DNA of 64,000 bases from an uncultured Verrucomicrobiae bacterium (GTDB lineage Bacteria; Verrucomicrobiota; Verrucomicrobiia; Limisphaerales; AAA164-E04). Position 1 is the first letter of the stretch. Each line of letters opens with the position of its first letter. The stretch covers positions 386,876-450,875 of the forward strand of contig OX638380.1 of the NCBI GenBank assembly GCA_951813855.1. The letters are read 5' to 3'. Under the pieces are notes generated by a model that ran no database searches, had not been told where the DNA came from, and saw only the letters and a program-made list of their open reading frames with translations. The position numbers and the translations under genes are program-made. Shown here one piece after another: positions 5,922-42,891 of the stretch.

Positions 5922-6851
5922 ATGAGTCGAGCCGTCATCCAAACCAAAGACTTCACCAAGTCGTTCAAAAGGCAGAAGGCCCTCGACCGGGTTACCGTGA
6001 AGGTCGATCCGGGAGCCATCGGCCTGCTCGGACCCAACGGCGCGGGCAAGAGCACGTTCATGAAGTGCCTCCTGCAACTCATTCCTCATTCCGGCGGCAA
6101 AGCCCTGCTGCTGGGCAGGGATATTCGCCAGGAAGGCGCCGAGATCCGCAAGCGGGTCGGCTATAATCCCGAACAAGATTGCCATATCCCCGGCATGATC
6201 GGTTGCGAGTACATCGCCTATTGCGCTCAATTGAGCGGGCTGCCTTTCAACGCCGCCCGGCAACGGTCCCACGAAATGCTCGACTTCGTCGGCATGGGGC
6301 AAGAACGCTACCGCAACATCGACACCTATTCGACCGGCATGAGGCAACGCCTGAAACTCGCTCAGGCCATCGTTCACGACCCGGAGATCGTTTTTCTCGA
6401 CGAGCCCACCAACGGACTGGACCCCAAAGGGCAGGCCCAGATCCTCGATCTGATTCAAAGCCTCTGGAAAGTTCACGGTATTTCCGTCGTTCTCTCCTCG
6501 CATCTGTTGCACGACGTCGATCGAATCTGCGAACAGATCATCATTATCTCCCAAGGCAAAATCCTGGTCCACGACACCTTGGAAAGACTCAAAGCCCGCC
6601 GGAATTACTCGGCTGAGCTCGTCTTGAAATCCCGAGCCGGCGACTTTATTTCGGCTTGCCGATCCCGGGGCTGGCCGACCGAAACGCTGCCCAACGGCCA
6701 TATCAAGGTAGAGCACGGGACGAGCACTCTCGATCCGCTGTTCGATCTGGCGCTGGAGACCAAAGTCACTCCCCTGCAAATCATCCCCAGTCCCAGCGCG
6801 CTGGAAGAATTATTCGTTCAAGCTCTCGCCAACGCCAATGAGTCTGCATAA
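5922..6851 (+). CDS. ABC transporter ATP-binding protein
   Basis: Walker A GPNGAGKST, signature YSTGMRQRL, Walker B IVFLDEPTNGLD. First gene of a 4-gene operon. Confidence 0.9.
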   Translation: MSRAVIQTKDFTKSFKRQKALDRVTVKVDPGAIGLLGPNGAGKSTFMKCLLQLIPHSGGKALLLGRDIRQEGAEIRKRVGYNPEQDCHIPGMIGCEYIAYCAQLSGLPFNAARQRSHEMLDFVGMGQERYRNIDTYSTGMRQRLKLAQAIVHDPEIVFLDEPTNGLDPKGQAQILDLIQSLWKVHGISVVLSSHLLHDVDRICEQIIIISQGKILVHDTLERLKARRNYSAELVLKSRAGDFISACRSRGWPTETLPNGHIKVEHGTSTLDPLFDLALETKVTPLQIIPSPSALEELFVQALANANESA

Positions 6852-10125: not shown

Positions 10126-10335
10126 GGACGACGAGCAATTAATCCTCGAAACCGGAAATAGTCAATCCGCGTCCCCCGGTTCTGCAGGGTTTTTTCACGC
10201 TAATCGCTAGAGGCCCGTGTCACCGATTTCGGGACATATTCGCTTTTTCCCTTCACCAGAGAGCCGAAACTTTAGCGCCTTCGAAATGGGAAAATAAAGC
10301 TGGCTTTTTCATTCTCCGGTCGTTATTGGTTCCTC

Positions 10336-12123
10336 ATGGACGCCAAAATCAACCTCAAGCTGGTGACTGTTCGATTAGTGAAGAGCAGTGAGCGAAGACG
10401 CTGGGATTCGCTGATGGATCAGAACCATCGCTTGGGTTTCAAAGGCTTTGCCGGACGCGGGCTGCGTTATGTTGCCGAGTACCGAGGCCGGTGGTTGGCG
10501 TTAGCCGGCTGGCAAAGCGGAGTGTTCAAGTGTCGCCCGCGAGACAAGTGGCTCGGATGGAAAAAACGAGAGCAGTTTCGTCGGCTGCATTTGATTGCCA
10601 ACAATACCCGATTCCTCCTGCTTACCGAGCGGGGCGAAGTGCGCAATCTGGGGAGCTGCGTCATGGCCAAAATGCTGCGCCGGCTGAGTGCCGATTGGCA
10701 ACGGACCTGGGGTCATCCGCTGGAATTGGCCGAAACTTTCGTCGATCCCCGACACTTCGCGGGCACGATCTATCGCGCGGGGAATTGGCGGGCGGCAGGG
10801 CAATCGCAAGGCTACGCTCGCAGCAACGGACGCTATACCGCCCGGCACAATATCAAGAAGGAAAGGTACGTTTATCCCTTGCGGCCCCAAGCCGGTTCCC
10901 GATTAAGGAAGCGTCAGGACGATCCGTCTTGGGGCCCCCAGGTGCAGCGGGTAGAAACGTCTCCGAAACAGTTGAAATCATTGGTGCAACTGCTAGCGGA
11001 AATGGCTGATTTTCGCCGGGCACAAGGACGCAAACATCGGCTGGAAATGGTCCTCGCTAGCTGCATCTTAGCTCGATTGGCCGGCAAGGTCGGCCCCTTG
11101 GCGACTTCGCGTTACGCCCAAAAAATGACGCCAAATCAATTGCAGACTCTCGGGGCGTGGCGCCACGCCAAGGGCCGTTGCGTGGCCCCGTCTCTCGCGA
11201 CGATTCACCGGGTCATGACCGAGACGGATCCGGAAGCGTTGCCAACGGTAACTCACCGCTGGGTAACGGCCCAATTGACTCGACAACCCCTGGAAGCCTT
11301 GGCTGCCGACGGGAAGCGGATCAACGGAGCTAATCGCAACAGCAAAGACCATTTCGAGACCGTCATCCTCGTGCGCCATCAAGATGCGGTGCCCCTCGCC
11401 GTTCGCATTTGCCGAGACCAAGGCGGCGAACAGGCGGCGATGGCGGCTCTCTTGGAGGATGTCGATATCCGGGGAGCCATCATTACGATCGATGCGCTCC
11501 ATACTAACCGAGTCATGGCCGATGCCATCGTGTTGGTTAACGGAGCCCATTTTCTCTTCACGGTCAAAGAGAACAACCCCGAACTCTCTCAATTTTTGAC
11601 CAGCCTGGATTGGGATCGAGTGGCCCAGGACCGGTTCACCGAAAACCCGGAGAAAGGACATGGCCGCATCGATCAACGGAGCATTCAAACCTATGAACCC
11701 CTTCCCGGAGCCGTCAAATTACCGCATGTCCTCCAAGTCTTTCGGATCCTTCGACACCGCCATCATTTAAACGGTGGGCCCGAGACCGTGGAATATGCTT
11801 ACGGCGTCACTTCGTTGCCTCCGGAAGCTGCCGACGCTCAACGATTGTTGTCACTCAATCGGGGACATTGGACGGTAGAAAACGGCAATCACCGCCGTCG
11901 CGACGGGATTTTCGGCGAAGATGATTGTCTCATGCGAACTCGCCATGGGCCGACAAACAATGCCCTCTTCAACAACCTGGCCTTGGCGATCATTCTCCAG
12001 TCGGGATACTCTAATATGGCCGAAGCTACTGACGATTTTCAGACGAATCGGAACCAAGGGTTGCGAGCCGTCACGAAAACCACCCCGTTTAAACGTCCGA
12101 AAAAACGTCCGAAAAAAAACTGA
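10336..12123 (+). CDS. ISAs1-family DDE transposase with a DUF4338-like N-terminal module
   Basis: C-terminal two thirds: DFRRAQGRKHRLEMVLASCILARLAG (DDE_Tnp_1-associated), ADGKRINGA..., ITIDALHTNRVMADAIV..GAHFLFTVKENNPEL, NRGHWTVENGNHRRRDGIFGEDDC (ISAs1/H-repeat signature). N-terminal about 190 aa: WDSLMDQNHRLGF..GRGLRYVAEY..RDKWLGW..NNTRFLLL..ETFVDPRHFAGTIYRAGNW, a DUF4338-type pattern. IS ends were not located. Confidence 0.8.
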   Translation: MDAKINLKLVTVRLVKSSERRRWDSLMDQNHRLGFKGFAGRGLRYVAEYRGRWLALAGWQSGVFKCRPRDKWLGWKKREQFRRLHLIANNTRFLLLTERGEVRNLGSCVMAKMLRRLSADWQRTWGHPLELAETFVDPRHFAGTIYRAGNWRAAGQSQGYARSNGRYTARHNIKKERYVYPLRPQAGSRLRKRQDDPSWGPQVQRVETSPKQLKSLVQLLAEMADFRRAQGRKHRLEMVLASCILARLAGKVGPLATSRYAQKMTPNQLQTLGAWRHAKGRCVAPSLATIHRVMTETDPEALPTVTHRWVTAQLTRQPLEALAADGKRINGANRNSKDHFETVILVRHQDAVPLAVRICRDQGGEQAAMAALLEDVDIRGAIITIDALHTNRVMADAIVLVNGAHFLFTVKENNPELSQFLTSLDWDRVAQDRFTENPEKGHGRIDQRSIQTYEPLPGAVKLPHVLQVFRILRHRHHLNGGPETVEYAYGVTSLPPEAADAQRLLSLNRGHWTVENGNHRRRDGIFGEDDCLMRTRHGPTNNALFNNLALAIILQSGYSNMAEATDDFQTNRNQGLRAVTKTTPFKRPKKRPKKN

Positions 12124-12346
12124 CCCGACCTTCCTGATTACCGACGCTTCCTCCCTGCTGATTCGGTCGGCGAATTGATCGTTCGACCGATACTCGCACC
12201 GGTTCAGTCTCCTGTCCGGCTGAAACTCGTCTCAATCGGCAATCGCCGCCTAACTCGAAGCATAATTCGGAAAAACAGTTTTTCCGACGAATCGAAATAC
12301 TCCGCTCGACACTTAAAAAAACGATCGTCGATCAAAAATTATTAGC

Positions 12347-12976
12347 ATGAAAAAGTCCTGCCCGGTTCTGCTCGACACCGGCCCAGCGGCCAGGCAGTAT
12401 CGAGCCATGGCCCAGACCCCATCCACCATGATCGCGCTGGGAACGCCCGCGCCCGATTTCGCCTTGCCCGACACCGAAGGCCGAGAAGTGACCCGCGACC
12501 AGTTTCGAGGCCAGAAAGGCCTGCTGGCAATGTTCATCTGCAATCACTGTCCGTTCGTCATTCATCTCCGCAGCGGTTTGGTCGAAATGGGTCGAACTTA
12601 TATTCCCCGAGGCATTGCCGTATTAGCCGTCAGCAGCAACAACGTCGAAACGCATCCGGACGACAGTCCGCAAAAAATGAAAGAAGACGCGGAAAGGTTC
12701 GATTACCCCTTCCCCTACCTTTACGACGAAGACCAGTCGGTGGCTCGAGCTTACCGTGCCGCCTGCACTCCGGATTTCTTTTTGTTCGACGAAAACCGGC
12801 GACTGGTATACCGCGGTCAATTCGACGACGCTCGGCCGGGCAATCAACACCCCGTTACGGGAAAGGATTTGAAAGCGGCCATGGACGCGCTCTTGGCGAA
12901 CCAACCGGTCGCCCCCGAGCAAAAGCCCTCGATCGGCTGCAATATCAAATGGAAACCCGGCAACGAACCGAACTAG
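12347..12976 (+). CDS. thioredoxin-fold protein (AhpC/TSA-redoxin family)
   Basis: GTPAPDFALPDTEGREV..., FICNHCPFV, SSNNVETHPDDSP...YPFPYLYDEDQSVARAY. The true start may be the internal Met (MAQTPS) at 12407. Confidence 0.75.
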   Translation: MKKSCPVLLDTGPAARQYRAMAQTPSTMIALGTPAPDFALPDTEGREVTRDQFRGQKGLLAMFICNHCPFVIHLRSGLVEMGRTYIPRGIAVLAVSSNNVETHPDDSPQKMKEDAERFDYPFPYLYDEDQSVARAYRAACTPDFFLFDENRRLVYRGQFDDARPGNQHPVTGKDLKAAMDALLANQPVAPEQKPSIGCNIKWKPGNEPN

Positions 12977-33218: not shown

Positions 33219-34138
33219 TCAACTCTTGTCGATTAAAAACAAGAACTCGTGATGAGGAGACTCCGTTTTGCACAGCCATTCATGGGTCCATTTCATGCCG
33301 GCCATGACGTTGCGCTGGTAATCCAACTTCACGACGTCAACCAGGGTGCCGCATTCGGTTAAAACCCGGTTAATATCTTCAGCCGTGCCTCGCCCCCCGG
33401 AACTGTACGACAAAATCACCCACCTGGCAGAAGTAGCTTTAATCAAGCGTTCGAGCGCCTCAACCGCCAGAAATCTCCCCGAACGTTCGTTACTCTTGAA
33501 TTCTTCGAACACCGATCCCGCAATCCGATCTGAAGAATCGCAGCACCGTTTTGCCTTTCCGAATAAATCCGGGCAGTCATTCAAACACACCGTAGTCCAC
33601 AAGTGATAGTAGGAAGCGTAGCGAACGTGTGACGGCGGCATTTTCTCGTTATTGGAACCGTAAGGCGGATCGAAATAAGCCAGATCGACATCGGCGCCGC
33701 AAATATCGAAAACGTCTTTCCTCGTCACTTCGTTCGGACGGTCCGTAACGAATACCTTGGGAACTTCAAGGACCAAATCGTTGTATGATCTGGCGGACCA
33801 AGTGTTCAAATAAAAAACGAAATGCCCGATGGTGTTATCGACCCGGTCCAAGGCCAGTATCAAACTGGAAAGAGCGACAGCTCGTTCCAATGGAGATAAA
33901 GCCAATCTATCGATTTCATGACGAATACCGTCGAGCTTTCTAGTGTTATGGATCTGCCACGGCTTCTTGAGACCGGACGGTTGCAATGCACTGCCGCCAT
34001 TCCGGTCTCCCCCATAGTGTTCCGTAAACCAACCGTCCTTTGGTGAAACTTCATTCAAGCGTCGTATCAGCTTGGCATAACGACTCTCCGGATATTGGTT
34101 TTGAAGATAACACATTCCGAATACCAGCGACCAAATAG
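33219..34138 (-). pseudogene. D12-class (Dam-like) N6-adenine DNA methyltransferase, C-terminal fragment (residues about 76-381), separated from its N-terminus by IS insertion
   Basis: Contains the catalytic motif FDPPYGSNN. It begins exactly at the 9-bp duplicated target ACCAAATAG (34130-34138). It joins in frame with fragment 38031..38265 (…CNDVAIW|SLVFGMCYLQ…). Confidence 0.85.
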
Positions 34139-34317
34139 TGTCAAGTCCAAAAGTCAAAATCCATAGTTGATTTCTTTAAAAACTAAAAAAAATAATTTCA
34201 AATTAGATCGGAATAAATGGTTAAATCGACATATTTATCTTAAATTGTATTTTTTTTGATCTTTTACAGAATTCAAGACGCACCCCTCCCATTCTTGACA
34301 TTGATTTGGCGATTTAG

Positions 34318-35531: not shown

Positions 35532-37623
35532 CAGCAATTCCCACTGAAGAAGAAAATCCAGTAAAAACAAGGGTTTTCTCGATCTGGTTTTCGCGCTGCT
35601 TTTTTCAAATATTTTCAGCATTTCTTCCAAAACTATGCTACATTAATGGTGGTTTCGTTGTAATCGCTGTTTTTTCGTATCTTTTCCTGACCAAAACGTG
35701 ATTTGACGCTTTTTGGCCCTGGATCTGGTGCCATAATTCGTCTTAACCTGTTCTCCCGACGTATTTTTCGGCCAGAAAAGCCCTCCGAGAGGATCTCGAG
35801 TTGTTCTCGAACTCAGGAGTCTGCGATCTGCCGGGATCTCAGCGTCAGTCCCATGTTTTGATTCCGTTCGACGTGCCGACCGGCCTGATCCGTCGTGGAA
35901 CAAGCCGATCCTCACAACCAATCAACGAAAGGTTTTCCTTGGTGAAATTCCGCAAAAAATTACTTAAACCCAATATCCTCGGGAGGATTTGGGGGTGTTT
36001 TCGCCTCGTTCCACGCCCCTGCCGCAAAAGCAGGTACGAGGTCACCGACCATTTGATGAGCGCGTTTGTGGCGTTGCAGCAGAAATTTTCATCGTTACTG
36101 GGCTTTGACGAAGCCACTCGAAGTCGGAAACGAAAGGGTATGAGCCGAAGAACCCGGGCTAACTTGCGCAAACTGTATCGTATCAAACGAGTGCCTTCTG
36201 ATTCGGGATTACGCAAATTCCTGGATCGGATCAATCCCATTCATCTTCGATCCGCGTTCCTGGAACTGTTTCGGATGTTACAACGAAACGGAGTGTTGAA
36301 GCGATATTGGTGGGAAGACAAGCATTATCTCGTGTCGATAGACGGCACCGGGGTTTTCTCTTCCAACCATCTTCACTGTGAACACTGCTGTCAAAAACAA
36401 CACGAAAACGGTGCGATCACCTATTACCATCAAGCCGTGGGAGCCGCCGTGGTTCATCCGGACCAGTCGGAGGTTATTCCGCTAGCGCCAGAGCCGATCA
36501 GCAAGCAATTAATCGGTTCGGAAGCCGACCCGGAGGTGGGCCCGAAGGACGAGGAACTCACCGACTTTCCATACCGGTATACGGACCGTTACCGGTGGGA
36601 AAGCAGCAATAAATGGCTCATCAACGATTGCGAGAGCCGAGCCATCCGGCGGTTGGTCACCAGACTTCATCGGGAACATCCCCGCCTGAAGATCGTCGTA
36701 TTGGCCGATGGGCTTCATTCCAACGCCACGTTTATCAAGCTCCTGAAACGGTATCGAATGTCCTTTATCATCGTCGCCAGACCAAGCAATCACGAACATT
36801 TATTCGAGCTATTTGTGAAAGCGGATGAGACCGGTGAATCCCACCGGCTCGTATGCTGGGACAAAGCTGGCGTTAAGTATACGTACATCTGGGTGAATCA
36901 ACAGCCGCTGAACCAAGCTAATCCCGAGCTTAAAATTAATTTTTTATGGTGCGAAATCGAAGCTCCGGGTGAAAAGCCAGCGATTTTTTCTTGGGTCACT
37001 GATTGGGAAATTAATGACTCCAACGTTCAAAAAATAGCGCAGGCCGGTCGCAGCCGGTGGCAAATCGAGGATACTTTTAATAGTTTGAAAAATCGCGGGT
37101 ACCAGTTGGAGCATAATTATGGCCACGGAAAAGAACATCTCTCCACGGTTTTTCTGTTTTTGATGATGCTGGCGGTGCTGGTAGATCAAATGGAACTGAT
37201 CGCTTGTACTCTCTTTAAACGGGCGCCTCAGATGATCGGATCGCTCCAGGAAGTCTGGATTGAAATCAGATGCCATCTTCGCATGCATTGTCTCACGGAT
37301 TGGAACCATCTCTACCAGTTACTCGTGTATGGGATGCTCGACTTCGTGCCTAAACCTGCCGCCCCCACCTAGTCGGCGATATTCAGACCGAGATCGCTAG
37401 TCGGCGACCTCAAAAAAAAACTCGATTTAGATCGAGCTAGGAGTGGTGCGTTCTGAGCTCGTTCGTCGGTCGGGCGAAACGCAAAATAAATCACCTGGTC
37501 AAGGGAAAAAACGAAATTTCATCTGAAATCAGGCTTGAAAATCCGCTTTTCAACCGTATTTAACATATTTACAAATAATTTTTTCACAATTACAATTTGG
37601 CCTGACTTCAGTGGGAATTGCTG
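35532..37623 (+). mobile_element. IS4-superfamily insertion sequence (2092 bp) nested inside the outer IS transposase gene
   Basis: Perfect 18-bp terminal inverted repeats CAGCAATTCCCACTGAAG (35532-35549; reverse complement at 37606-37623). Perfect 9-bp TSD TCGTCCAGG (35523-35531 / 37624-37632). Confidence 0.9.
35801..37372 (+). CDS. IS4-superfamily DDE transposase
   Basis: ...HYLVSIDGTGVFSS (D1)...KIVVLADGLHSNATFI (D2)...GRSRWQIEDTFNSLKNRGYQLEH (Y-R-E-K-type box). The true start may be an internal Met (e.g. MSAFVALQQ near 36057). Confidence 0.75.
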   Translation: MFSNSGVCDLPGSQRQSHVLIPFDVPTGLIRRGTSRSSQPINERFSLVKFRKKLLKPNILGRIWGCFRLVPRPCRKSRYEVTDHLMSAFVALQQKFSSLLGFDEATRSRKRKGMSRRTRANLRKLYRIKRVPSDSGLRKFLDRINPIHLRSAFLELFRMLQRNGVLKRYWWEDKHYLVSIDGTGVFSSNHLHCEHCCQKQHENGAITYYHQAVGAAVVHPDQSEVIPLAPEPISKQLIGSEADPEVGPKDEELTDFPYRYTDRYRWESSNKWLINDCESRAIRRLVTRLHREHPRLKIVVLADGLHSNATFIKLLKRYRMSFIIVARPSNHEHLFELFVKADETGESHRLVCWDKAGVKYTYIWVNQQPLNQANPELKINFLWCEIEAPGEKPAIFSWVTDWEINDSNVQKIAQAGRSRWQIEDTFNSLKNRGYQLEHNYGHGKEHLSTVFLFLMMLAVLVDQMELIACTLFKRAPQMIGSLQEVWIEIRCHLRMHCLTDWNHLYQLLVYGMLDFVPKPAAPT

Positions 37624-37846: not shown

Positions 37847-38030
37847 GTTAGGAATCGAATATTAGTCTCAAAGATGCTGACAATTGGTCTCAAGGACGCT
37901 GAAAGTCCATTTTTCAGGTAAAAATCAAAGTTCCGACTCGAATGTTAGACAAATAAATCGAACAAAATGTTACAAAAAAAACCGCTTGAAATGCAGGATT
38001 TATTGAAAAATCGTCCCTTTTGGACCAGAC

Positions 38031-38265
38031 ACCAAATAGCAACATCATTGCATAAAACGCGGTATCCGGATTTGGCAAATGCTTGCGAAACCCTTGTCGA
38101 ACCGGCAAATCCATCAAGAATCGTCGTTGCTTCAGTTCGGTTGGCCAGTTCTAAAATATAAGGCAGCAACCTTAACTTGGAACCCGCATATTTAATCCCT
38201 TGAGTTGCGGGCGCATCGATCACCAGGTCCGGAAATAAAGACGAATAGGTAGACGACAAGCTCAT
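38031..38265 (-). pseudogene. D12-class DNA adenine methyltransferase, N-terminal fragment (78 aa)
   Basis: GIKYAGSKLRLLPYIL (xYxGSK motif) and ILDGFAGSTRVSQAF (FxGxG SAM motif). It ends in the duplicated target ACCAAATAG (38031-38039), after which the ORF reads into the IS end. Confidence 0.85.
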
Positions 38266-38498: not shown

Positions 38499-38649
38499 CT
38501 CACAGATGCGCCGATAGCCACCTGAAGAGACGGTTCATAGAAAAAATCCCCTTAAACGCCACTCACCGAATGGTATTGGAATAAATCAATGAATCTCGTC
38601 CCGTAGGGAGATTCACATGAATTGTTGCCGGTGGGAATTGAGGCTAGGA

Positions 38650-41090
38650 CTACCGATTCATGACAATTTCGTCTGGACTACGGGCTCGCCTCCCTGATCC
38701 GCAGCCCTCTTTAGTCCGATCTCAATACCCTTTTCAATACCGATCTGGATACCAACGTGGTGGGCTAACAAGGAGGTAGATAACTTGTTATAACCGTTCC
38801 AAATGATTTGATGTCCCGGAACCTTGTCCTGTTTTCGCTGACGAAATCCTCCGAGATGGGCCATTAATTGAACGGCAGGGCCGAGGCTTGCCGGTGGTTC
38901 CAAGCGGTAAATTTTGGCGTAGTCGTTGAGAAAGTTCAACTCGTCGCTGGTAAACATAATCTCGGGGTTCCAATCGGGCGATTGCCGTCCCAGTAAAGTC
39001 ATGACCATGATCCGCCAAGCGATCACGGCCTGGATCGCAATGACCCGTCGCAAGCGTTCAGCAGTGCGAAACAGCAGCGCTTCAATTTTACATCCCGACT
39101 TGAGAACTCGAAAATAATCCTCGATTTGCCACCGTTGCAAATAATACTCGACCACCTGTTGCGCCCGGTTGGCGTCCTTCACTTCCAAGGTAGTCAGCAA
39201 GTGCCATTGTACGGGAGGTTCGTCTTCGGGCGGACTGATCTCCTTAATGTGGACTGTCGACAACTTGATGGGAGCGACTCCCTTGATGATCGCCGGCAGG
39301 GTTAACTGACGGAAGCGTAACTCGCATTGGGCTACGCGCTTAAGCCGAGCGGGCCTCGCTGGCTGGCGACTTGATTTCAGCCGTTCCGTTAACCCCTTGA
39401 TTTCGACCTCCATGATGCGACGGGCCGGCCCTTCGCTCATTTGATCGAACAGCTTCGGCACTTTCTTTCCTATAATTCGATTATGATGAGCCCGGACTAA
39501 CAAGTTCACTCGCGGATGATGGCGTTGCGCCTCGAACAATTCAAAAAAGTCCGCCTCCCGATCACCCACGGCAATCACTTGGGTCTTGCCACTGACCTGA
39601 CGTGCGGCCTTGGGCCGTATCCTTGAAGCCCTCCAGCCAGCGGTCCGTCTTTTTGCCTTTTTTGCTCGGCTCTGAGTGCTGAGTTAGCCGGTCGAATCCC
39701 AAGCGTAATATCCCCAATGGCAGTCCTTGGTCCGTGACAACCATGGTCGTATGCATCTGGATTCCGGCGGTCTTGGAATTCGTCTGGTTTCTGCCGATGA
39801 TCTGTAACCCTTCGCAACCGGGGCGAGTGGCAAATCTGAGATCGGTGCCGTCCTGAATCGCCAGCACCGTGGTTTGATTTCGGAACCGTTGCACGCTGCG
39901 ATGGCGATGGGTCGCCAAAATGTTTGCTACCGTCACTCCGCTGTCGTCCGGCTTCTCGACCAGGCGATAGAAGGCATTGATGGCGGTCAAATCATTCTCT
40001 GGGGCGGCATTGATTTTCTCTCCCATATGTTGTGCTAGCAGTGGGACGCTTCTGACCAGACGGGCCGTCAATCGCTTATCGCCCAACGGAGCTTCGCCAA
40101 ATTCATTCTTCGCCCATTCCGAGGTGTTCAAGCCGGCTCCCGGTTCCAAGGCCGGAGCATGGTCGACCCAAGGCACTTGTAATGCTCGCCGCCAGCCGGG
40201 AGTCAAGGCGTACATGTAAATCGTTTTAACCGTTTTTTCAAACCGTTTGTGACGATCTTGACGACCGCGACCGACCGTTTGACCAACGCACACGAAATTA
40301 GCGGCGCGCAAGCAGGTCCCCTCGTATCCTTCGTCGGTAAAACTTTCGACGAGTAACGGTCGATAGTCATACTGAGATTTAAAATCATCGGGCAAGCGTC
40401 GCAAAATAATCCCCAACACGTGGCTGGCCAGATGCTGACAACGAACGGACGGGCGGATGAGAAATCGACTCAGCCCCACCACTCGGTGAAGCTGATCCCG
40501 ACGTTGTTCCTCGCTCCAAGCTATCCAACGATCCCGGGCCGTGAGCCGTACAGCGGAAGCGGAGAATCCGGCCGCTCCCAGCCAACCATGCGCGGAACCA
40601 ATCAGATAACGGATTTGGCAACCCACGAAAGTTGTATTCCCTTGAGGATGTTCGTTGGCGATGAGCGTGTTCCACACCGGGCGATTATCGTCGGTCACGA
40701 CCATCACCTCCAAATCAGTAATCTTCGCTAGGGTCGGAGGTACGGCTTTCGGTAGCGAAACAGCCTTGTCGAGTAATCGAGGAGTTGACTTCACGGCCGG
40801 CCGACGGGCCGCCGGCAATGACAGACCTTTCGTCGTCTCCAGTTGCGACAGTGCCTTTAGGCACCCCGCCAGTTGAGGTCGCCCTTGGGGATTGAAAAAA
40901 CGAAATTCCTGGCAGATTCGTCGGCCTAAATCACTTCGGCTATTAAACTGTTCTTGGGTAAGAATCGCCGTAATTCGCAGAAGCGAACCCTCCAGATGCA
41001 ACGTTCGGCAGATATGAGATTGCGCCATACGGCAGCTAGTATATCCATTCAAAAATAGATTGTCCAGTCTTTTTTTCCATTAGACGGTAG
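38650..41090 (-). mobile_element. IS4-family (Tn5/IS50-like) insertion sequence, 2441 bp
   Basis: Ends CTACCGATTCATGAC...GTCTGGAC / CTACCGTCTAATGG...GACTGGAC in inverted orientation. The 8-bp direct repeat GGCTAGGA directly flanks it (38642-38649 / 41091-41098). Confidence 0.7.
38658..41052 (-). pseudogene. Tn5-like DDE transposase with a DUF4338-like N-terminal module, split by one frameshift (ORFs 39562..41052 and 38658..39578)
   Basis: ORF1: DUF4338-like (GCQIRYLIGSAHGWLGAAGF..RDRWIAW..LSRFLIR..ESFTDEGYEGTCLRAANF), then a Tn5-type N-terminal region (...LAIQDGTDLRF...KKTDRWLEGF). ORF2: VIAVGDREADFFELF...YYLQRWQIEDYFRVLKSGCKIE. The ORF2 frame is already open and coding-like upstream of its Met (RPKAARQVSGKTQVIAVGD), which places a 1-nt indel near 39605-39630. 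Confidence 0.8.
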
Positions 41091-41361
41091 GGCTAGGAAA
41101 CGCGGCTCCCAAGGACCGCAGGTGAGCCCTGAACGGAGCAATTACAGCAGCAGTCCGACATGCATGCCCCCCCAAGGCGTATTTCGGCCACCAAAAAAAG
41201 CCTTGTCAAAGATCCAGATTTCGTCATGATGTTCCGAAATCGCGACTCGAGCCAGGGTGATGAAAAGAGGCGATACGAAATTCGCCGAGGAGCCAGATTT
41301 TAACTGATCCGTCGAAAGGATGGTCACACCGCTATCTGGGACGCTAACGAGAAAGAACCAC

Positions 41362-42891
41362 ATGCGGATGAAATCGCTGCACATCACGGCTGTTTTAGGA
41401 ACGGCCGCCATCATAGTCGCTACGCTTGCTTTGTTTTTTTATATCAAAGCGTTGGATGCCGACAAAAACGAAGGCAACTCAGAAGCTACCCATGCTGAGT
41501 TCACGGCCATTGCGGCGGGATATGATCACTCAGTGGCCTTGAGAACAGACGGTTCCGTGGTCGCTTGGGGGAAGAACAAAGACGATCGAAAGAAAGTACC
41601 GAATGGCCTGAAGGACGTGACGGCCATTGCGGCGGGAGCCTTACACACCGTGGCCTTGAGAACAGACGGTTCCGTGGCCGCTTGGGGGAATAACGAATAC
41701 GGTCAAACGGATGTGCCTAATGGACTGAAGGACGTGACGGCCATTGCGGCGGAAAGAAGTCACACCGTGGCCTTGAGAACGGACGGTTCCGTGGTCGCTT
41801 GGGGGAATAACGAATACGATCAAACGGATGTGCCGAATGGACTGAAGGACGTGACGGCCATTGCGGCGGGAAGAAGTCACACCGTGGCCTTGAGAACGGA
41901 CGGTTCCGTGGTCGCTTGGGGGTCGAACGAATCCGGTCAAACGGATGTGCCGAATGGACTGAAAGACGTGTCGGCCATTGCGGCGGGAGCCGAGCACACC
42001 GTGGCCTTGAGAACGGACGGTTCCGTGGTCGCTTGGGGGGCTAACAGATCCGGTCAAACGGAGGTGCCGAATGGACTGAAGGACATAACGGCAATTGCGG
42101 CGGGATATTTTCACACCGTGGCCTTGAGAACGGACGGTTCCGTAGTCGCTTGGGGGTGGAACGAATCCGGGCAAACGGATGTGCCAAATGGACTGAAAGA
42201 CGTGACAGCCGTTGCGGCGGGATACAAGCACACCATGGCCTTGAGAACGGACGGTTCCGTGGCCGCCTAGGGGTGGGACAAATGGGGTCAAACGGATGTA
42301 CCGAATGGACTGAAGGACGTGATGGCCATTGCGGCAGGAGACTTACACACCGTGGCCTTGAGAACGGACGGTTCTGTGGTCGCTTGGGGGTGGGACATGT
42401 GGGGTCAAACGGATGTGCCGAATGGACTGAAGGATGTGACGGCCGTTGCGGCGGGATATTTTCACACCGTGGCCTTGAGAACGGACGGCTCCGTGGCCGC
42501 TTGGGGGCGGGACATATGGAGTCAAACGGAGGTGCCGAATGGACTGAAGGACGTGACGGCCATTGCGGCGGGAGCCTTACACACCGTGGCCTTGAGAACA
42601 GACGGTTCCGTGGCCGCCTGGGGGTGGAACAATTCCGGTCAAACGGATGTGCCGAATGACCTGAAGGACGTGACGGCCATTGCGGCGGGAGCCGAGCACA
42701 CCGTGGCCTTGAGAACGGACGGTTCCGTGGTCGCTTGGGGGGATAACGATTTCGGTCAAACGGATGTGCCGAATAGACTGAAGGACGTGACGGCCATTGC
42801 GGTGGGAGCCGAACACACCGTGGCCTTGAGAACGGACGGTTCCGTGGTCGCTTGGGGGGAATTAACGGGTTTGAACGCCATTTTGAACTGA
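41362..42891 (+). pseudogene. membrane-anchored RCC1-like repeat protein gene interrupted by an in-frame TAG (ORFs 41320..42270 + 42319..42891, same frame)
   Basis: N-terminal TM (ITAVLGTAAIIVATLALFFYI), then 12 units of the type AIAAGxxHTVALRTDGSVVAWGxNxxGQTDVPNGLKDVT. TAG at 42268-42270 replaces the conserved Trp codon (GCC TAG GGG versus GCT/GCC TGG GGG in the other units). Confidence 0.8.
41503..42891 (+). repeat. tandem array of 12 units of 117 bp (39 codons) with very high nucleotide identity
   Basis: Unit starts at 41503, 41620, ... with a period of exactly 117. Long identical strings such as CACACCGTGGCCTTGAGAACGGACGGTTCCGTGGTCGCTTGGGGG recur. Confidence 0.9.

What the first reader, a model, noticed from the sequence alone, without database searches (positions are those of the whole stretch)
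10336..12123. The same DUF4338-like N-terminal module is fused to two unrelated DDE transposase families in one window
The first about 190 aa of the ISAs1-type transposase (10336..12123) are clearly homologous to residues about 110-290 of the Tn5-like transposase (39562..41052). Compare GRGLRYVAEYRGRWLALAGW...RDKWLGW...NNTRFLLL...MLRRLSADW...ELAETFVDPRHFAGTIYRAGNW with GCQIRYLIGSAHGWLGAAGF...RDRWIAW...LSRFLIR...ILRRLPDDF...LLVESFTDEGYEGTCLRAANF. The catalytic cores belong to different families (ISAs1/H-repeat versus IS4/Tn5). As I recall it, this pattern is Pfam DUF4338, the domain that defines DruA of the Druantia anti-phage system. Here it behaves as a portable transposase accessory module, possibly for DNA or target recognition. 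Its repeated recruitment by different ISs, and its link to a defence protein, is poorly explained.
Basis: partly seen in the sequence, partly recalled or inferred. Interest (0 to 1): 0.75.

Follow-up and report, generated by a model that had tools for sequence, protein, structure and literature searches.

The report
Mom-like enzyme module riding on transposases
Two unrelated insertion-sequence transposases in this window carry the same extra enzyme domain, a relative of the phage Mu DNA-modifying protein Mom, and this domain also accompanies at least six or seven families of bacterial insertion sequences, a pattern I found described in no paper.

Summary
ORF 10336..12123 (595 aa, ISAs1 family) and ORF 39562..41052 (the first 496 aa of a frameshifted IS4/Tn5-like transposase) share a ~180-aa module: BLASTP 31% identity, E 1e-21, and both hit Pfam PF14236 (DUF4338/'DruA'). 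Both genes lie in complete insertion sequences with inverted repeats and target duplications (10185..12360 and 38650..41090).

The module is not a plain DNA-recognition domain. Models (pLDDT ~90) give a GNAT fold. Among solved structures, phage Mu Mom ranks first for the IS4-type model and has the best query-normalised TM-score of the listed hits for the ISAs1-type model. Residues that hhalign places opposite Mom's S124, D149 and Y159 are conserved. Mom modifies DNA adenine using Gly-tRNA.

It is not a Druantia DruA. The PADLOC DruA model barely matches, and there are no DruB-E neighbours.

The module is widespread: 12,317 protein clusters. It occurs fused to ISAs1, IS4 and IS630 transposases. 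It also occurs as a separate gene just upstream of IS4, IS66, ISKra4 and unclassified DDE transposases, and near an IS1182 one. In five loci tested the inverted repeats enclose both genes.

What the module does for an insertion sequence is inferred only. I favour local nucleic-acid modification. No paper found links DUF4338 to transposases.

The parts
10175..10184 (.). Left copy of the 10-bp target-site duplication CCCGGTTCTG of the ISAs1-type element
   Evidence: Read from the sequence; identical to 12361..12370
10185..10204 (+). Left terminal inverted repeat CAGGGTTTTTTCACGCTAAT of the ISAs1-type element
   Evidence: Local alignment of the flanks, 17/20 matching the right end. Multi-copy relatives have the same CAGGG...TCACGCTAA end motif
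10185..12360 (+). Complete 2,176-bp ISAs1-family insertion sequence encoding a GNAT-transposase fusion
   Evidence: Relatives are 2.07-2.36 kb, multi-copy, with 9-11 bp target duplications
10336..12123 (+). 595-aa transposase ORF, uninterrupted: GNAT module, then DDE_Tnp_1_assoc, then the DDE core
   Evidence: The DDE-type motifs AADGK, TIDALH and HWTVEN can be read in the translation; their assignment as the catalytic motifs is mine, from recall of the family
10345..10890 (+). GNAT-fold PF14236 (DUF4338/'DruA') module, aa 4-185, Mom-like
   Evidence: Pfam E 9.5e-21. AlphaFold model pLDDT 90.7. Foldseek finds the GNAT fold, with Mom 8bv8 having the highest query-normalised TM-score (0.63) of the 50 hits listed. 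hhalign against the Mom family gives E 3.5e-5
10987..11265 (+). DDE_Tnp_1_assoc domain (aa 218-310), the usual N-terminal domain of ISAs1 transposases; presumed to bind the element ends
   Evidence: Pfam E 1.4e-12. The DNA-binding role is inferred
11287..11985 (+). DDE_Tnp_1 catalytic core (aa 318-550)
   Evidence: Pfam E 1.6e-9. NCBIfam ISAs1 match covers aa 282-553
12341..12360 (-). Right terminal inverted repeat of the ISAs1-type element
12361..12370 (.). Right copy of the target-site duplication CCCGGTTCTG
38642..38649 (.). 8-bp target-site duplication GGCTAGGA (low-coordinate side) of the IS4-type element
   Evidence: identical to 41091..41098
38650..41090 (-). Complete 2,441-bp IS4/Tn5-like insertion sequence (ends CTACCG...) whose transposase gene carries an N-terminal helical domain and the GNAT module. 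The gene is broken by a +1 frameshift
   Evidence: The orthologous locus L010 has the same insertion and the same flanks
39562..41052 (-). ORF A, 496 aa: helical N-domain, GNAT, Tnp_DNA_bind, and the first part of the DDE core (DGTD motif)
40828..41037 (-). N-terminal four-helix domain (aa 6-75), probably a winged helix; the ISAs1-type protein lacks it
   Evidence: AlphaFold model m53a102951a32, pLDDT 89.8, helices 6-19, 21-33, 39-50 and 61-75. The fold name is inferred
40240..40731 (-). GNAT-fold PF14236 module (aa 108-271) of the IS4-type protein
   Evidence: Pfam E 5.5e-27. Top Foldseek PDB hit is Mom 8bv8_B, E 2.2e-7
39952..40119 (-). Tn5-type N-terminal DNA-binding domain (Tnp_DNA_bind, aa 312-367)
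   Evidence: Pfam E 1.5e-9. NCBIfam IS4_FS_Nterm
39608..39609 (-). Frameshift site: one extra G in CAAGGCC, between catalytic D1 and the DREAD motif. Removing it restores a gap-free alignment to an intact relative
   Evidence: Shared by L010
38658..39578 (-). ORF B, 306 aa, in the +1 frame: DREAD motif, YREK-type motif, Tn5 dimerisation domain
   Evidence: transpos_IS4_3, 221.9 bits
41091..41098 (.). 8-bp target-site duplication GGCTAGGA (high-coordinate side)

Best explanation
SHOWN. The window holds two complete insertion sequences from different families. One is an apparently intact ISAs1 element (10185..12360). The other is an IS4/Tn5-like element (38650..41090) whose transposase gene is broken by a +1 frameshift. 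Both transposases carry a homologous ~180-aa GNAT-fold domain of Pfam PF14236 (DUF4338/'DruA'), placed immediately N-terminal to the domain that normally starts that kind of transposase (DDE_Tnp_1_assoc or Tnp_DNA_bind). The closest solved relative of this domain is phage Mu Mom, a GNAT that uses Gly-tRNA(Gly) to modify N6 of adenine in double-stranded DNA. The domain is a promiscuous accessory module of insertion sequences. It is fused to ISAs1, IS4 and IS630 transposases. It is also encoded as a separate ~300-aa gene directly upstream of IS4, IS66, ISKra4 and unclassified DDE transposases, within the inverted repeats in the five loci tested.

INFERRED. The domain is a working acyl- or aminoacyl-transferase. 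The adjacent DNA-binding domain of the transposase (or, in the stand-alone and IS4-type versions, the module's own N-terminal helical domain) brings it to the element's ends or to target DNA. There it adds a covalent mark to nucleic acid. That mark would tune transposition or shield the element from host DNA-targeting systems, much as Dam methylation gates IS10/IS50 (from my own knowledge of those elements) and as Mom shields the transposing phage Mu. This benefit does not depend on the chemistry of the transposase, which would explain why unrelated transposases have picked up the module.
For: Homology and family assignment.

Element boundaries and target duplications.

Fold:
- The models have pLDDT 90.7 and 89.8 with canonical GNAT topology.
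- Foldseek against the PDB gives 263 and 310 GNAT hits at E<=1e-3.
- Mom (8bv8_B) has the highest query-normalised TM-score (0.63) of the 50 listed hits for the ISAs1-type module (rank 5 by E-value) and is rank 1 for the IS4-type module.
- A phage protein named Mom is also among the top viral hits.

Sequence link to Mom:
- Apart from PF14236 itself, Mom (PF25680) is the only acetyltransferase-type Pfam family that appears, always below threshold (E 1e-3 to 5e-4). Two relatives carry it as a precomputed hit.
- hhalign of the module profile against a Mom-family profile gives probability 71.7%, E 3.5e-5, over 86 columns. The match includes RN..S, FxDx(5-6)GxxYxAxN[FW] and the C-terminal YxYPL..ARxRL.

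Active site:
- Mom residues reported as essential or important are R111, S124, D149, R151, Y159, H58, Y59 and W48 (PMC13219725).
- Module counterparts across 83 IS-borne sequences of 27-67% identity: S107 in 81/83, D137 as 64 D plus 11 E, Y146 as 58 Y plus 13 F. These three are aligned by hhalign.
- R92 83/83, H31 83/83 and W23 81/83 are placed by my manual alignment on the matching secondary-structure elements.

Active, multi-copy elements:
- 272 relatives were found in GTDB genomes.
- 69 of 80 fetched loci have one uninterrupted ORF of 588-898 aa (mostly about 590-610 aa).
- Ten or more identical copies occur per genome in several phyla.
- 43 of 51 copies have perfect 9-11 bp target duplications.

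Promiscuity:
- 12,317 clusters at 50% identity match the module profile.
- IS630 fusion P0505 scores 199 bits against a cutoff of 100.
- Separate-gene forms sit beside IS4_3, IS4_1, IS66, ISKra4 and IS1182 transposases, all above NCBIfam cutoffs.
- Inverted repeats enclose both genes in L101, L144, L164, L169 and L177.
- A rough NJ tree shows IS66-, ISKra4- and IS4-linked modules scattered across clades.
Against: - No biochemical or genetic data exist for any member. The acyl donor, the acceptor and the benefit to the element are all inferred.
- The sequence link to Mom is sub-threshold: Pfam 19.2 bits against a cutoff of 27.1, and hhalign probability only 72%.
- The automated alignment covers only the C-terminal half. 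Forcing it further misaligns the N-terminal half, so R92, H31 and W23 rest on manual alignment.
- Mom's HTH-like insertion, which is essential for its activity, is absent from the module (gap). The module instead has its own insertion carrying the invariant RDxWxGW motif.
- Mom R151 has no conserved counterpart.
- For the ISAs1-type model, the best Foldseek E-values belong to ordinary acetyl-CoA-dependent N-acetyltransferases.
- The IS4-type copy in this window is frameshifted, so it may make no full-length fusion protein at all.
Confidence: 0.5

Rival explanations
1. The module is a conventional acetyl-CoA-dependent protein N-acetyltransferase. It would acetylate the transposase itself or a host nucleoid protein and so regulate transpososome assembly.
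For: The fold is GNAT, and many top Foldseek hits are acetyl-CoA enzymes such as phosphinothricin acetyltransferase, Naa60, RimI and SpeG. Lysine acetylation of DNA-binding proteins is a common regulatory device (general knowledge).
Against: No acetyl-CoA GNAT Pfam family (such as Acetyltransf_1) scores at E<=0.01-0.1; only Mom does. The loop before helix 3 reads xN-L-[AG]-S like Mom's RN-S-E-S, rather than the Q/RxxGxG/A pyrophosphate-binding motif I recall for acetyl-CoA GNATs. The C-terminal motifs shared with Mom are specific to that family.
Confidence: 0.2
2. One reading: the module is a non-catalytic DNA-recognition, target-recognition or multimerisation domain.
For: The module always sits next to DNA-binding domains. 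The IS4-type and stand-alone versions add an N-terminal helical domain. GNAT-bearing IS4_3 elements show strict NNCTAGNN targeting in 8 of 8 insertion sites.
Against: Polar residues at Mom-equivalent catalytic positions are invariant or nearly so across very divergent IS lineages, which suggests selection for catalysis. The ISAs1-type elements carry the same module but show no target consensus across 43 duplications, so the module does not by itself impose a target sequence.
Confidence: 0.1
3. The module acts on tRNA or aminoacyl-tRNA, like the GNAT toxins TacT, AtaT and ItaT. It would slow host growth or act as an addiction or stress-coupling device for the element.
For: Mom binds charged tRNA as a co-substrate, and GNAT toxins acetylate aminoacyl-tRNA (discussed in PMC13219725). 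A host-directed effect would not depend on the transposase family.
Against: No antitoxin-like small ORF is conserved next to the module; the two-gene elements contain only the module gene and the transposase gene. A toxin that is covalently fused to a low-abundance, end-bound transposase and is carried in 10 or more copies per genome seems hard to tolerate.
Confidence: 0.1
4. The ORFs are remnants or cargo of a Druantia type I anti-phage system (DruA) that ended up beside transposases by chance or by capture of a defence island.
For: Pfam names PF14236 'Druantia protein DruA'. NCBI names some relatives 'Druantia anti-phage system protein DruA, partial'.
Against: The PADLOC DruA model (675 positions) gives no hit for the ISAs1 protein and 13 bits (E 0.0066) for the IS4 protein. 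The module is in frame with the transposase, lies inside the inverted repeats and target duplications, and is copied with the element 10 or more times per genome. None of the gene tables or ORF lists I examined for the window or the related loci showed an obvious DruB-E homologue; this was by inspection, not a dedicated search.
Confidence: 0.03

Closest known systems
Phage Mu Mom (PF25680; PDB 8bv8), a Gly-tRNA(Gly)-dependent DNA adenine N6-modifying GNAT
   Same: - GNAT fold. Mom is the top solved hit for the IS4-type model and has the best query-normalised TM-score of the listed hits for the ISAs1-type model.
- Shared motifs: RN..S before helix 3, FxD...GxxYxAxN[FW], and C-terminal Y.Y.L..AR.RL.
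- Conserved counterparts of Mom S124, D149 and Y159, and probably R111, H58 and W48.
- Both are carried by elements that move by DDE transposition.
   Different: - The module scores below Pfam's Mom threshold (19.2 against 27.1 bits).
- It lacks Mom's essential HTH-like insertion.
- It has its own insertion between strands 3 and 4 with an invariant RDxWxGW motif.
- It has no conserved R151 equivalent.
- It is fused to, or operonic with, a transposase rather than being a late phage gene.
- Its substrate is unknown.
DruA of Druantia type I (DUF4338)
   Same: It falls in the same Pfam family, PF14236, with scores above the gathering threshold.
   Different: The PADLOC DruA profile essentially does not match. 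The module is a ~180-aa domain or a ~300-aa protein, against a DruA profile of 675 positions. No obvious DruB-E genes were seen nearby. The context is an insertion sequence, not a defence operon.
ISAs1-family insertion sequences (H-repeat type)
   Same: The transposase core scores above the NCBIfam cutoff, the DDE_Tnp_1_assoc domain is present, the inverted repeats start CAGGG, and target duplications are 9-10 bp. RefSeq already names a homologue 'ISAs1 family transposase'.
   Different: The transposase has an extra ~190-aa N-terminal GNAT enzyme domain, giving ~590-610 aa against the 314-position ISAs1 model.
IS4 family, Tn5/IS50-like group (NCBIfam transpos_IS4_3)
   Same: It has Tnp_DNA_bind, a DDE core with DREAD and YREK-type motifs, the Tn5 dimerisation domain and short terminal repeats.
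   Different: It has an extra N-terminal helical domain plus the GNAT module (~300 aa). Target duplications are 8 bp and centred on CTAG (I recall Tn5 making 9-bp duplications). The gene is often split into +1-frame ORFs. The copy in this window is frameshifted inside the catalytic core.
Accessory genes that travel with transposases, such as TnpB/IscB in IS200/IS605 and TnpB of IS66, and Dam-methylation control of IS10/IS50 (from my own knowledge)
   Same: A non-transposase function is recurrently linked to insertion sequences. DNA modification at the element ends is an established way of gating transposition.
   Different: Here the accessory function is a GNAT enzyme, it spans at least six or seven unrelated transposase families, it is often covalently fused to the transposase, and the modification (if there is one) would be written by the element itself rather than by a host methylase.

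Membership tests
Pfam PF14236 (DUF4338 / DruA domain family) | Score above the Pfam gathering threshold (27 bits) | tested here: met
   74.6 bits for the ISAs1-type protein and 95.1 bits for the IS4-type protein
Druantia type I DruA (defence protein) | Match to the PADLOC DruA model | tested here: not met
   No hit for the ISAs1 protein; 13 bits, E 0.0066, over 37 residues for the IS4 protein
Druantia type I DruA (defence protein) | Operon context with DruB, DruC, DruD and the DruE helicase | tested here: not met
   The flanks of both elements are housekeeping genes, other insertion sequences or methyltransferase fragments, and the module lies inside IS boundaries. This is by inspection of ORF lists, not a dedicated DruB-E search
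GNAT superfamily | Mixed alpha/beta fold b1-a1-(a2)-b2-b3-b4-a3-b5-a4-b6-b7 | tested here: met
   AlphaFold models with pLDDT 90.7 and 89.8. 263 and 310 PDB GNAT hits at E<=1e-3. PMC10853773 also calls DUF4338 a GNAT
GNAT superfamily | Acetyl-CoA pyrophosphate-binding loop Q/RxxGxG/A (motif recalled from memory) | tested here: not met
   The loop reads [x]N-L-[AG]-S: N 68/83, L 83/83, S 81/83, as in Mom's RNSES. Cofactor binding itself was not testable
Mom family (PF25680) | Score above the Pfam gathering threshold (27.1 bits) | tested here: not met
   19.2 bits, E 1.1e-3; 20.1 bits for relative P0015
Mom family (PF25680) | Conserved catalytic residues R111, S124, D149, R151 and Y159 (PMC13219725) | tested here: inconclusive
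   Counterparts of S124, D149 and Y159 are conserved and aligned by hhalign. The R111 counterpart (R92, 83/83) rests on manual alignment only. The R151 counterpart is not conserved
Mom family (PF25680) | HTH-like insertion (residues ~175-209) required for activity | tested here: not met
   hhalign opens a ~21-column gap in the module at this place
Mom family (PF25680) | Gly-tRNA-dependent modification of DNA adenine | not testable with these tools
   Needs biochemistry or mass spectrometry of nucleosides
ISAs1 family insertion sequence | Transposase above the NCBIfam transpos_ISAs1 cutoff (70 bits) | tested here: met
   151.6 bits
ISAs1 family insertion sequence | Terminal inverted repeats and a direct target duplication flanking one transposase gene | tested here: met
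   20-bp inverted repeats (17/20) and a 10-bp duplication. Multi-copy relatives share the end motif
IS4 family (Tn5-like, transpos_IS4_3) | Transposase above the NCBIfam cutoff (160 bits), with Tnp_DNA_bind and Dimer_Tnp_Tn5 | tested here: met
   ORF B scores 221.9 bits; Tnp_DNA_bind E 1.5e-9; Dimer_Tnp_Tn5 E 5e-8
IS4 family (Tn5-like, transpos_IS4_3) | Uninterrupted transposase reading frame (a functional copy) | tested here: not met
   A +1 frameshift lies between D1 and D2 and is shared with the orthologous locus L010

The most novel reading that the evidence does not exclude
Many bacterial insertion sequences, from at least six or seven unrelated transposase families, encode their own Mom-like enzyme. 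This enzyme would write a covalent mark (acyl, or derived from an aminoacyl group) on DNA at the element's ends or target sites. That would be a self-encoded epigenetic layer controlling transposition or hiding the element from host DNA-targeting defences. The DruA protein of Druantia type I would be the defence-system version of the same DNA-marking enzyme.
Probability: 0.25. Interest if true: 0.9.

Novelty: new variant of a known kind. Interest (0 to 1): 0.68.

Why it matters
- Transposases fused to, or paired with, a second enzyme are uncommon. Finding one enzyme module shared by ISAs1, IS4, IS630, IS66, ISKra4 and other elements points to a general, unrecognised requirement or advantage in the life of insertion sequences.
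- The result gives a concrete, testable hypothesis for a large family of unknown function (DUF4338, more than 12,000 clusters at 50% identity): a Mom-like nucleic-acid acyl- or aminoacyl-transferase.
- By extension it gives a hypothesis for the uncharacterised DruA component of Druantia type I.
- It flags an annotation hazard. IS-borne modules are being named 'Druantia protein DruA', which could distort surveys of defence systems.
- The multi-copy elements found here have clean ends and target duplications, so they are ready-made material for experiments.

Tried and rejected
- **'Short OrfA' idea, rejected as the rule.** The first two homologue searches listed only proteins of 133-360 aa. This suggested that relatives are mostly GNAT-plus-DNA-binding 'OrfA' proteins without a DDE core. 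The genome scan and the representative search showed that full-length fusions of ~590-610 aa and ~750-800 aa are common. Several of the short proteins whose loci I examined are fragments cut by frameshifts or by other IS insertions. Real two-gene forms do exist, however.
- **Failed scans.** Genome scans with divergent alignments A1 and A2 failed because no conserved 7-10-column stretch was found. A six-sequence alignment worked.
- **Exact look-ups.** The window protein and P0001 are not on record. The cluster look-up gave no names.
- **Sequence search of the PDB.** The module profile found nothing meaningful. Only fold comparison showed the GNAT/Mom relationship.
- **Extending the Mom alignment.** Forcing hhalign into the N-terminal half gave an obviously wrong register. 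The equivalences R92, H31 and W23 therefore remain manual.
- **Antisense ORFs.** ORFs on the opposite strand downstream of stand-alone modules were artefacts of ISKra4 or IS66 genes on the forward strand.
- **ISKra4 for the L003/L011 partner gene, rejected.** NCBIfam gives no ISKra4 hit, so it remains an unclassified DDE transposase.
- **Plasmid search.** Only two records, both from Thiodictyon.
- **Literature.** Searches for DUF4338, DruA plus GNAT, DruA plus transposase, ISAs1 plus acetyltransferase, and passenger genes found nothing on this association.
Full report
**1. Checking the observation**

ORF 10336..12123 (+, 595 aa) and ORF 39562..41052 (-, 496 aa) exist as described.

Pfam places PF14236 ('DruA', formerly DUF4338) at aa 4-185 of the first protein (E 9.5e-21) and at aa 108-271 of the second (E 5.5e-27). 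Both scores are well above the 27-bit threshold. The two modules align by BLASTP at 31% identity over 175 residues, E 1e-21. A tblastn of both proteins against the whole window finds only these two copies.

The transposase parts belong to different families:
- The first protein has DDE_Tnp_1_assoc plus DDE_Tnp_1 and matches NCBIfam transpos_ISAs1 at 151.6 bits against a cutoff of 70.
- The second has Tnp_DNA_bind. Its continuation, ORF 38658..39578, has DDE_Tnp_1 plus Dimer_Tnp_Tn5 and matches transpos_IS4_3 at 221.9 bits against a cutoff of 160.

The Tn5-like gene is split. ORF B lies in the +1 frame, and the break is a single extra G in CAAGGCC at 39608-39609. Removing that G restores a gap-free alignment (...DTAQAARQVSGKTQVIAVGDREAD...) to an intact relative.

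**2. Anatomy of the two elements**

The ISAs1-type gene sits in a complete 2,176-bp element, 10185..12360:
- The inverted repeats are CAGGGTTTTTTCACGCTAAT and its complement, matching at 17 of 20 positions.
- The element is flanked by a perfect 10-bp direct repeat, CCCGGTTCTG.
- The ORF is uninterrupted, and DDE-type motifs (AADGK, TIDALH, HWTVEN) can be read in its translation. Calling these the catalytic motifs is my assignment from recall of the family.

The IS4-type gene sits in a 2,441-bp element, 38650..41090:
- The ends start CTACCG.
- The element is flanked by a perfect 8-bp repeat, GGCTAGGA.
- A contig from a closely related genome (L010, 98-99.6% identical) carries the same insertion at the same site with the same frameshift, plus one more.
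- The IS4-type copy is therefore an old, probably defective insertion. The ISAs1-type copy looks functional.

**3. What the module is**

An AlphaFold model of aa 1-195 of the ISAs1-type protein, built on an 83-sequence alignment, has mean pLDDT 90.7 and the canonical GNAT strand and helix order.

Foldseek against the PDB returns 263 hits at E<=1e-3, essentially all GNAT acyltransferases. Among the 50 hits listed, the highest query-normalised TM-score (0.63) belongs to phage Mu Mom (8bv8_B), which ranks fifth by E-value.

An independent model of aa 1-300 of the IS4-type protein (pLDDT 89.8) shows a four-helix N-terminal domain followed by the same GNAT fold. Its top PDB hit is again Mom, E 2.2e-7. 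In the viral structure library, a protein named Mom is among the best matches.

At the sequence level, Mom (PF25680) is the only acetyltransferase-type Pfam family other than PF14236 that appears for these proteins, always below threshold (E 1e-3 to 5e-4). Two relatives carry it as a precomputed hit.

Profile-profile comparison of the module alignment with a 30-sequence Mom-family alignment gives probability 71.7% and E 3.5e-5 over 86 columns. The aligned region runs from the loop before helix 3 to the C-terminus and includes these motifs:
- RN..S
- F-x-D-x(5,6)-G-x-x-Y-x-A-x-N-[FW]
- Y-x-Y-P-L..AR.RL

A 2024 paper from an independent group already calls DUF4338 'a GNAT domain' in passing (PMC10853773). 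I found no paper that links it to Mom.

**4. Is it likely to be catalytic?**

Mom was recently shown to be a GNAT that uses Gly-tRNA(Gly) to aminoacylate N6 of adenine in double-stranded DNA. R111 and S124 are essential, and H58, Y59, D149, R151, Y159 and W48 are important (PMC13219725). That paper's numbering equals the GenBank numbering plus 10.

Across 83 IS-borne module sequences of only 27-67% identity:
- The residues that hhalign places opposite S124, D149 and Y159 are S107 (81/83), D137 (64 D plus 11 E) and Y146 (58 Y plus 13 F).
- R92, H31 and W23 lie on the same secondary-structure elements as Mom R111, H58 and W48. They are present in 83/83, 83/83 and 81/83 sequences. These three equivalences are my manual alignment. 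An attempt to extend hhalign into the N-terminal half failed.

There are clear differences from Mom:
- The module lacks Mom's essential HTH-like insertion (gap).
- It has no conserved counterpart of R151.
- It carries its own insertion between strands 3 and 4, with an invariant R69-D70-x-W72-x-G74-W75 motif.

My conclusion is that the module is a sister of Mom within the GNAT superfamily, not a Mom orthologue, and that its conservation pattern is what one expects of an active enzyme.

**5. It is not a Druantia protein**

The PADLOC DruA model (675 positions) gives no hit for the ISAs1-type protein and 13 bits (E 0.0066) for the IS4-type protein. Both modules lie inside IS boundaries, and I saw no DruB-E genes nearby. 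The link to defence holds only at the level of the Pfam family. NCBI nevertheless names some IS4-type fragments 'Druantia anti-phage system protein DruA, partial'.

**6. How common the architecture is, and in which elements**

*ISAs1-type fusions.* A scan of one genome per GTDB species found 272 relatives of the ISAs1-type module.
- Of the 80 loci fetched, 69 have one uninterrupted ORF of 588-898 aa (mostly about 590-610 aa) that aligns to the window protein over nearly its whole length.
- Such elements occur in 4 to 10 or more identical copies per genome. The hosts are metagenome-assembled genomes of Terriglobia, Bryobacterales, Pseudomonadales, Thermodesulfobacteriota and Versatilivoraceae.
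- The elements are 2.07-2.36 kb.
- Their ends are of the CAGGG...TCACGCTAA type, as in the window, or of the CACGG type.
- 43 of 51 copies have perfect 9-11 bp target duplications, with no target consensus.
- RefSeq annotates a plasmid homologue simply as 'ISAs1 family transposase'.

*Family size and fusions.* A profile search of 1.84 billion representative proteins finds 12,317 clusters at E<=1e-3 and 2,662 at E<=1e-30. My BLAST-based sorting of the newly listed top hits gives:
- about 55 fused IS4-type proteins, many of them 700-810 aa. Locus L096 confirms one as a single 792-aa ORF with all four Pfam domains.
- about 25 with ISAs1-type domains.
- about 50 with the module alone, including a class of ~290-310-aa proteins with the helical domain plus GNAT.
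- P0505, which is helical domain plus GNAT plus HTH plus DDE_3. It matches NCBIfam transpos_IS630 at 199 bits against a cutoff of 100.
- P0485, an IS66 transposase with the module at its C-terminus. This one may be a chimeric gene call.

*Stand-alone modules are also IS genes.* A metagenome scan seeded with one ~300-aa protein returned 80 loci. About 50 of them have a complete transposase gene next to the module gene. In most, it lies directly downstream on the same strand, with a gap of -60 to +16 nt. The transposases score above NCBIfam cutoffs for IS66, ISKra4, IS4_3 (Tn5-like) and IS4_1. An IS1182 transposase lies 153 nt downstream in one locus. An unclassified DDE family occurs in L155, and also in L003 and L011, where the upstream protein is GNAT plus DDE_Tnp_1_assoc.

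Inverted repeats enclose both genes in L101 (59 nt, 98%), L144, L169, L177 and L164. The L164 repeat starts GTAA, which I recall as typical of IS66.

Rough neighbour-joining trees of the module place IS66-, ISKra4- and IS4-linked versions in several separate clades. This suggests repeated exchange between IS families. These trees are only indicative.

**7. Mechanism**

What is shown:
- A conserved, Mom-like GNAT domain is physically coupled, by fusion or by an overlapping gene, to the DNA-binding end of transposases from many unrelated families.
- It is copied along with active, multi-copy elements.

What I infer (about 0.4-0.5 for the general idea, less for any detail):
- The module is an acyl- or aminoacyl-transferase acting on nucleic acid.
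- It is brought to the element's ends or to target DNA by the neighbouring DNA-binding domain, or by its own helical domain.
- The resulting mark either regulates transposition, as host Dam methylation does for IS10/IS50, or protects the element or its carrier DNA from DNA-targeting host systems, as Mom does for the transposing phage Mu.
- A benefit of this kind does not depend on the transposase, which would explain the promiscuity.

The rivals are listed separately with the results that would refute them. They are protein acetylation with acetyl-CoA, a non-catalytic recognition domain, a tRNA-directed toxin-like activity, and a Druantia remnant.

**8. Novelty**

The individual pieces are known kinds: ISAs1 and IS4 elements, the GNAT fold, and the DUF4338 Pfam family. 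Annotation pipelines already label some of these proteins. What I could not find in 8 million papers and preprints is any of the following:
- any description of DUF4338 as a transposase-associated module;
- its specific relationship to Mom;
- its spread over at least six or seven IS families.

I therefore rate this as a new variant of a known kind, with fairly high interest. It turns DUF4338/DruA function, and a possible self-encoded DNA-marking layer of insertion sequences, into directly testable questions.

Noticed in passing
window 38642..38649 and 41091..41098; L007-L009, L004, L005, L094, L095: GNAT-bearing IS4_3/Tn5-like elements insert at NNCTAGNN and duplicate 8 bp. Paired flanks: GGCTAGGA (window), GGCTAGGC, AGCTAGCC and CGCTAGTT. 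Single flanks: GCCTAGCA, GGCTAGGG, GGCTAGCA and GCCTAGCA. That is 8 of 8 independent sites with a central CTAG. I found no paper reporting this. ISAs1-type elements with the same module show no target consensus.
   Followed up: partly
window 35533..37622: A third insertion sequence of 2.09 kb. It has perfect 17-18 bp inverted repeats, (C)AGCAATTCCCACTGAAG, and a 9-10 bp target duplication, TCGTCCAGG(C). It encodes a 523-aa unclassified DDE transposase (35801..37372; DDE_Tnp_1 E 3e-8). That transposase belongs to the same family as the partner gene of the GNAT proteins in L003, L011 and L155. The orthologous locus L010 shows the empty site, so the insertion is recent.
   Followed up: yes
L010 10816..12367 (maps to window ~38213..38221): The related genome carries a 1.55-kb IS (401-aa DDE_Tnp_1 transposase) at a site that is empty in the window. 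IS insertion polymorphism therefore runs in both directions between two genomes that are ~99% identical.
   Followed up: partly
window 33219..34157 (-) and 37945..38265 (-): Two fragments of a D12-class N6-adenine DNA methyltransferase (Pfam profile positions 92-191 and 1-50) lie ~3.8 kb apart on the same strand. Between them is a gene of unknown function (475 aa in L010), which in the window is itself cut by the 2.09-kb IS. An adenine methylase gene appears to have been destroyed in this IS nest.
   Followed up: partly
L005 ~6000..6075; L007 ~6010..6080; window 39608..39609: Many IS4_3-type relatives are split into two ORFs. OrfA (helical domain, GNAT and Tnp_DNA_bind, 351-360 aa) is followed by OrfB (DDE and dimerisation domain), always in the +1 frame, but the shift is at slightly different codons. 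NCBIfam has separate models for the two parts (IS4_FS_Nterm and transpos_IS4_3). I could not tell whether this is programmed +1 frameshifting, long-read homopolymer error or decay.
   Followed up: partly
P0154, P0185 (relatives of the IS4-type module): NCBI names these IS-derived fragments 'Druantia anti-phage system protein DruA, partial'. The PADLOC DruA model, however, barely recognises the window's IS4-type module, to which they are 54-55% identical. This is a likely source of misannotation.
   Followed up: no
window 41320..42270 (+) and up to ~42860: A protein with RCC1-like repeats (repeated '...HTVALRTDGSVVAWG.NE.GQTDVPNGLKDVTAIAAG') is encoded by long tandem DNA repeats. These appear as staggered self-matches of 85-89% identity, offset by about 117 nt.
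   Followed up: no
L107-L121 (metagenome loci): A subgroup of ~370-aa stand-alone homologues (about 45% identical to P0504) has no transposase in the flanks held. Neighbours include a NACHT/STAND NTPase. Not every member of the family is obviously IS-borne.
   Followed up: no
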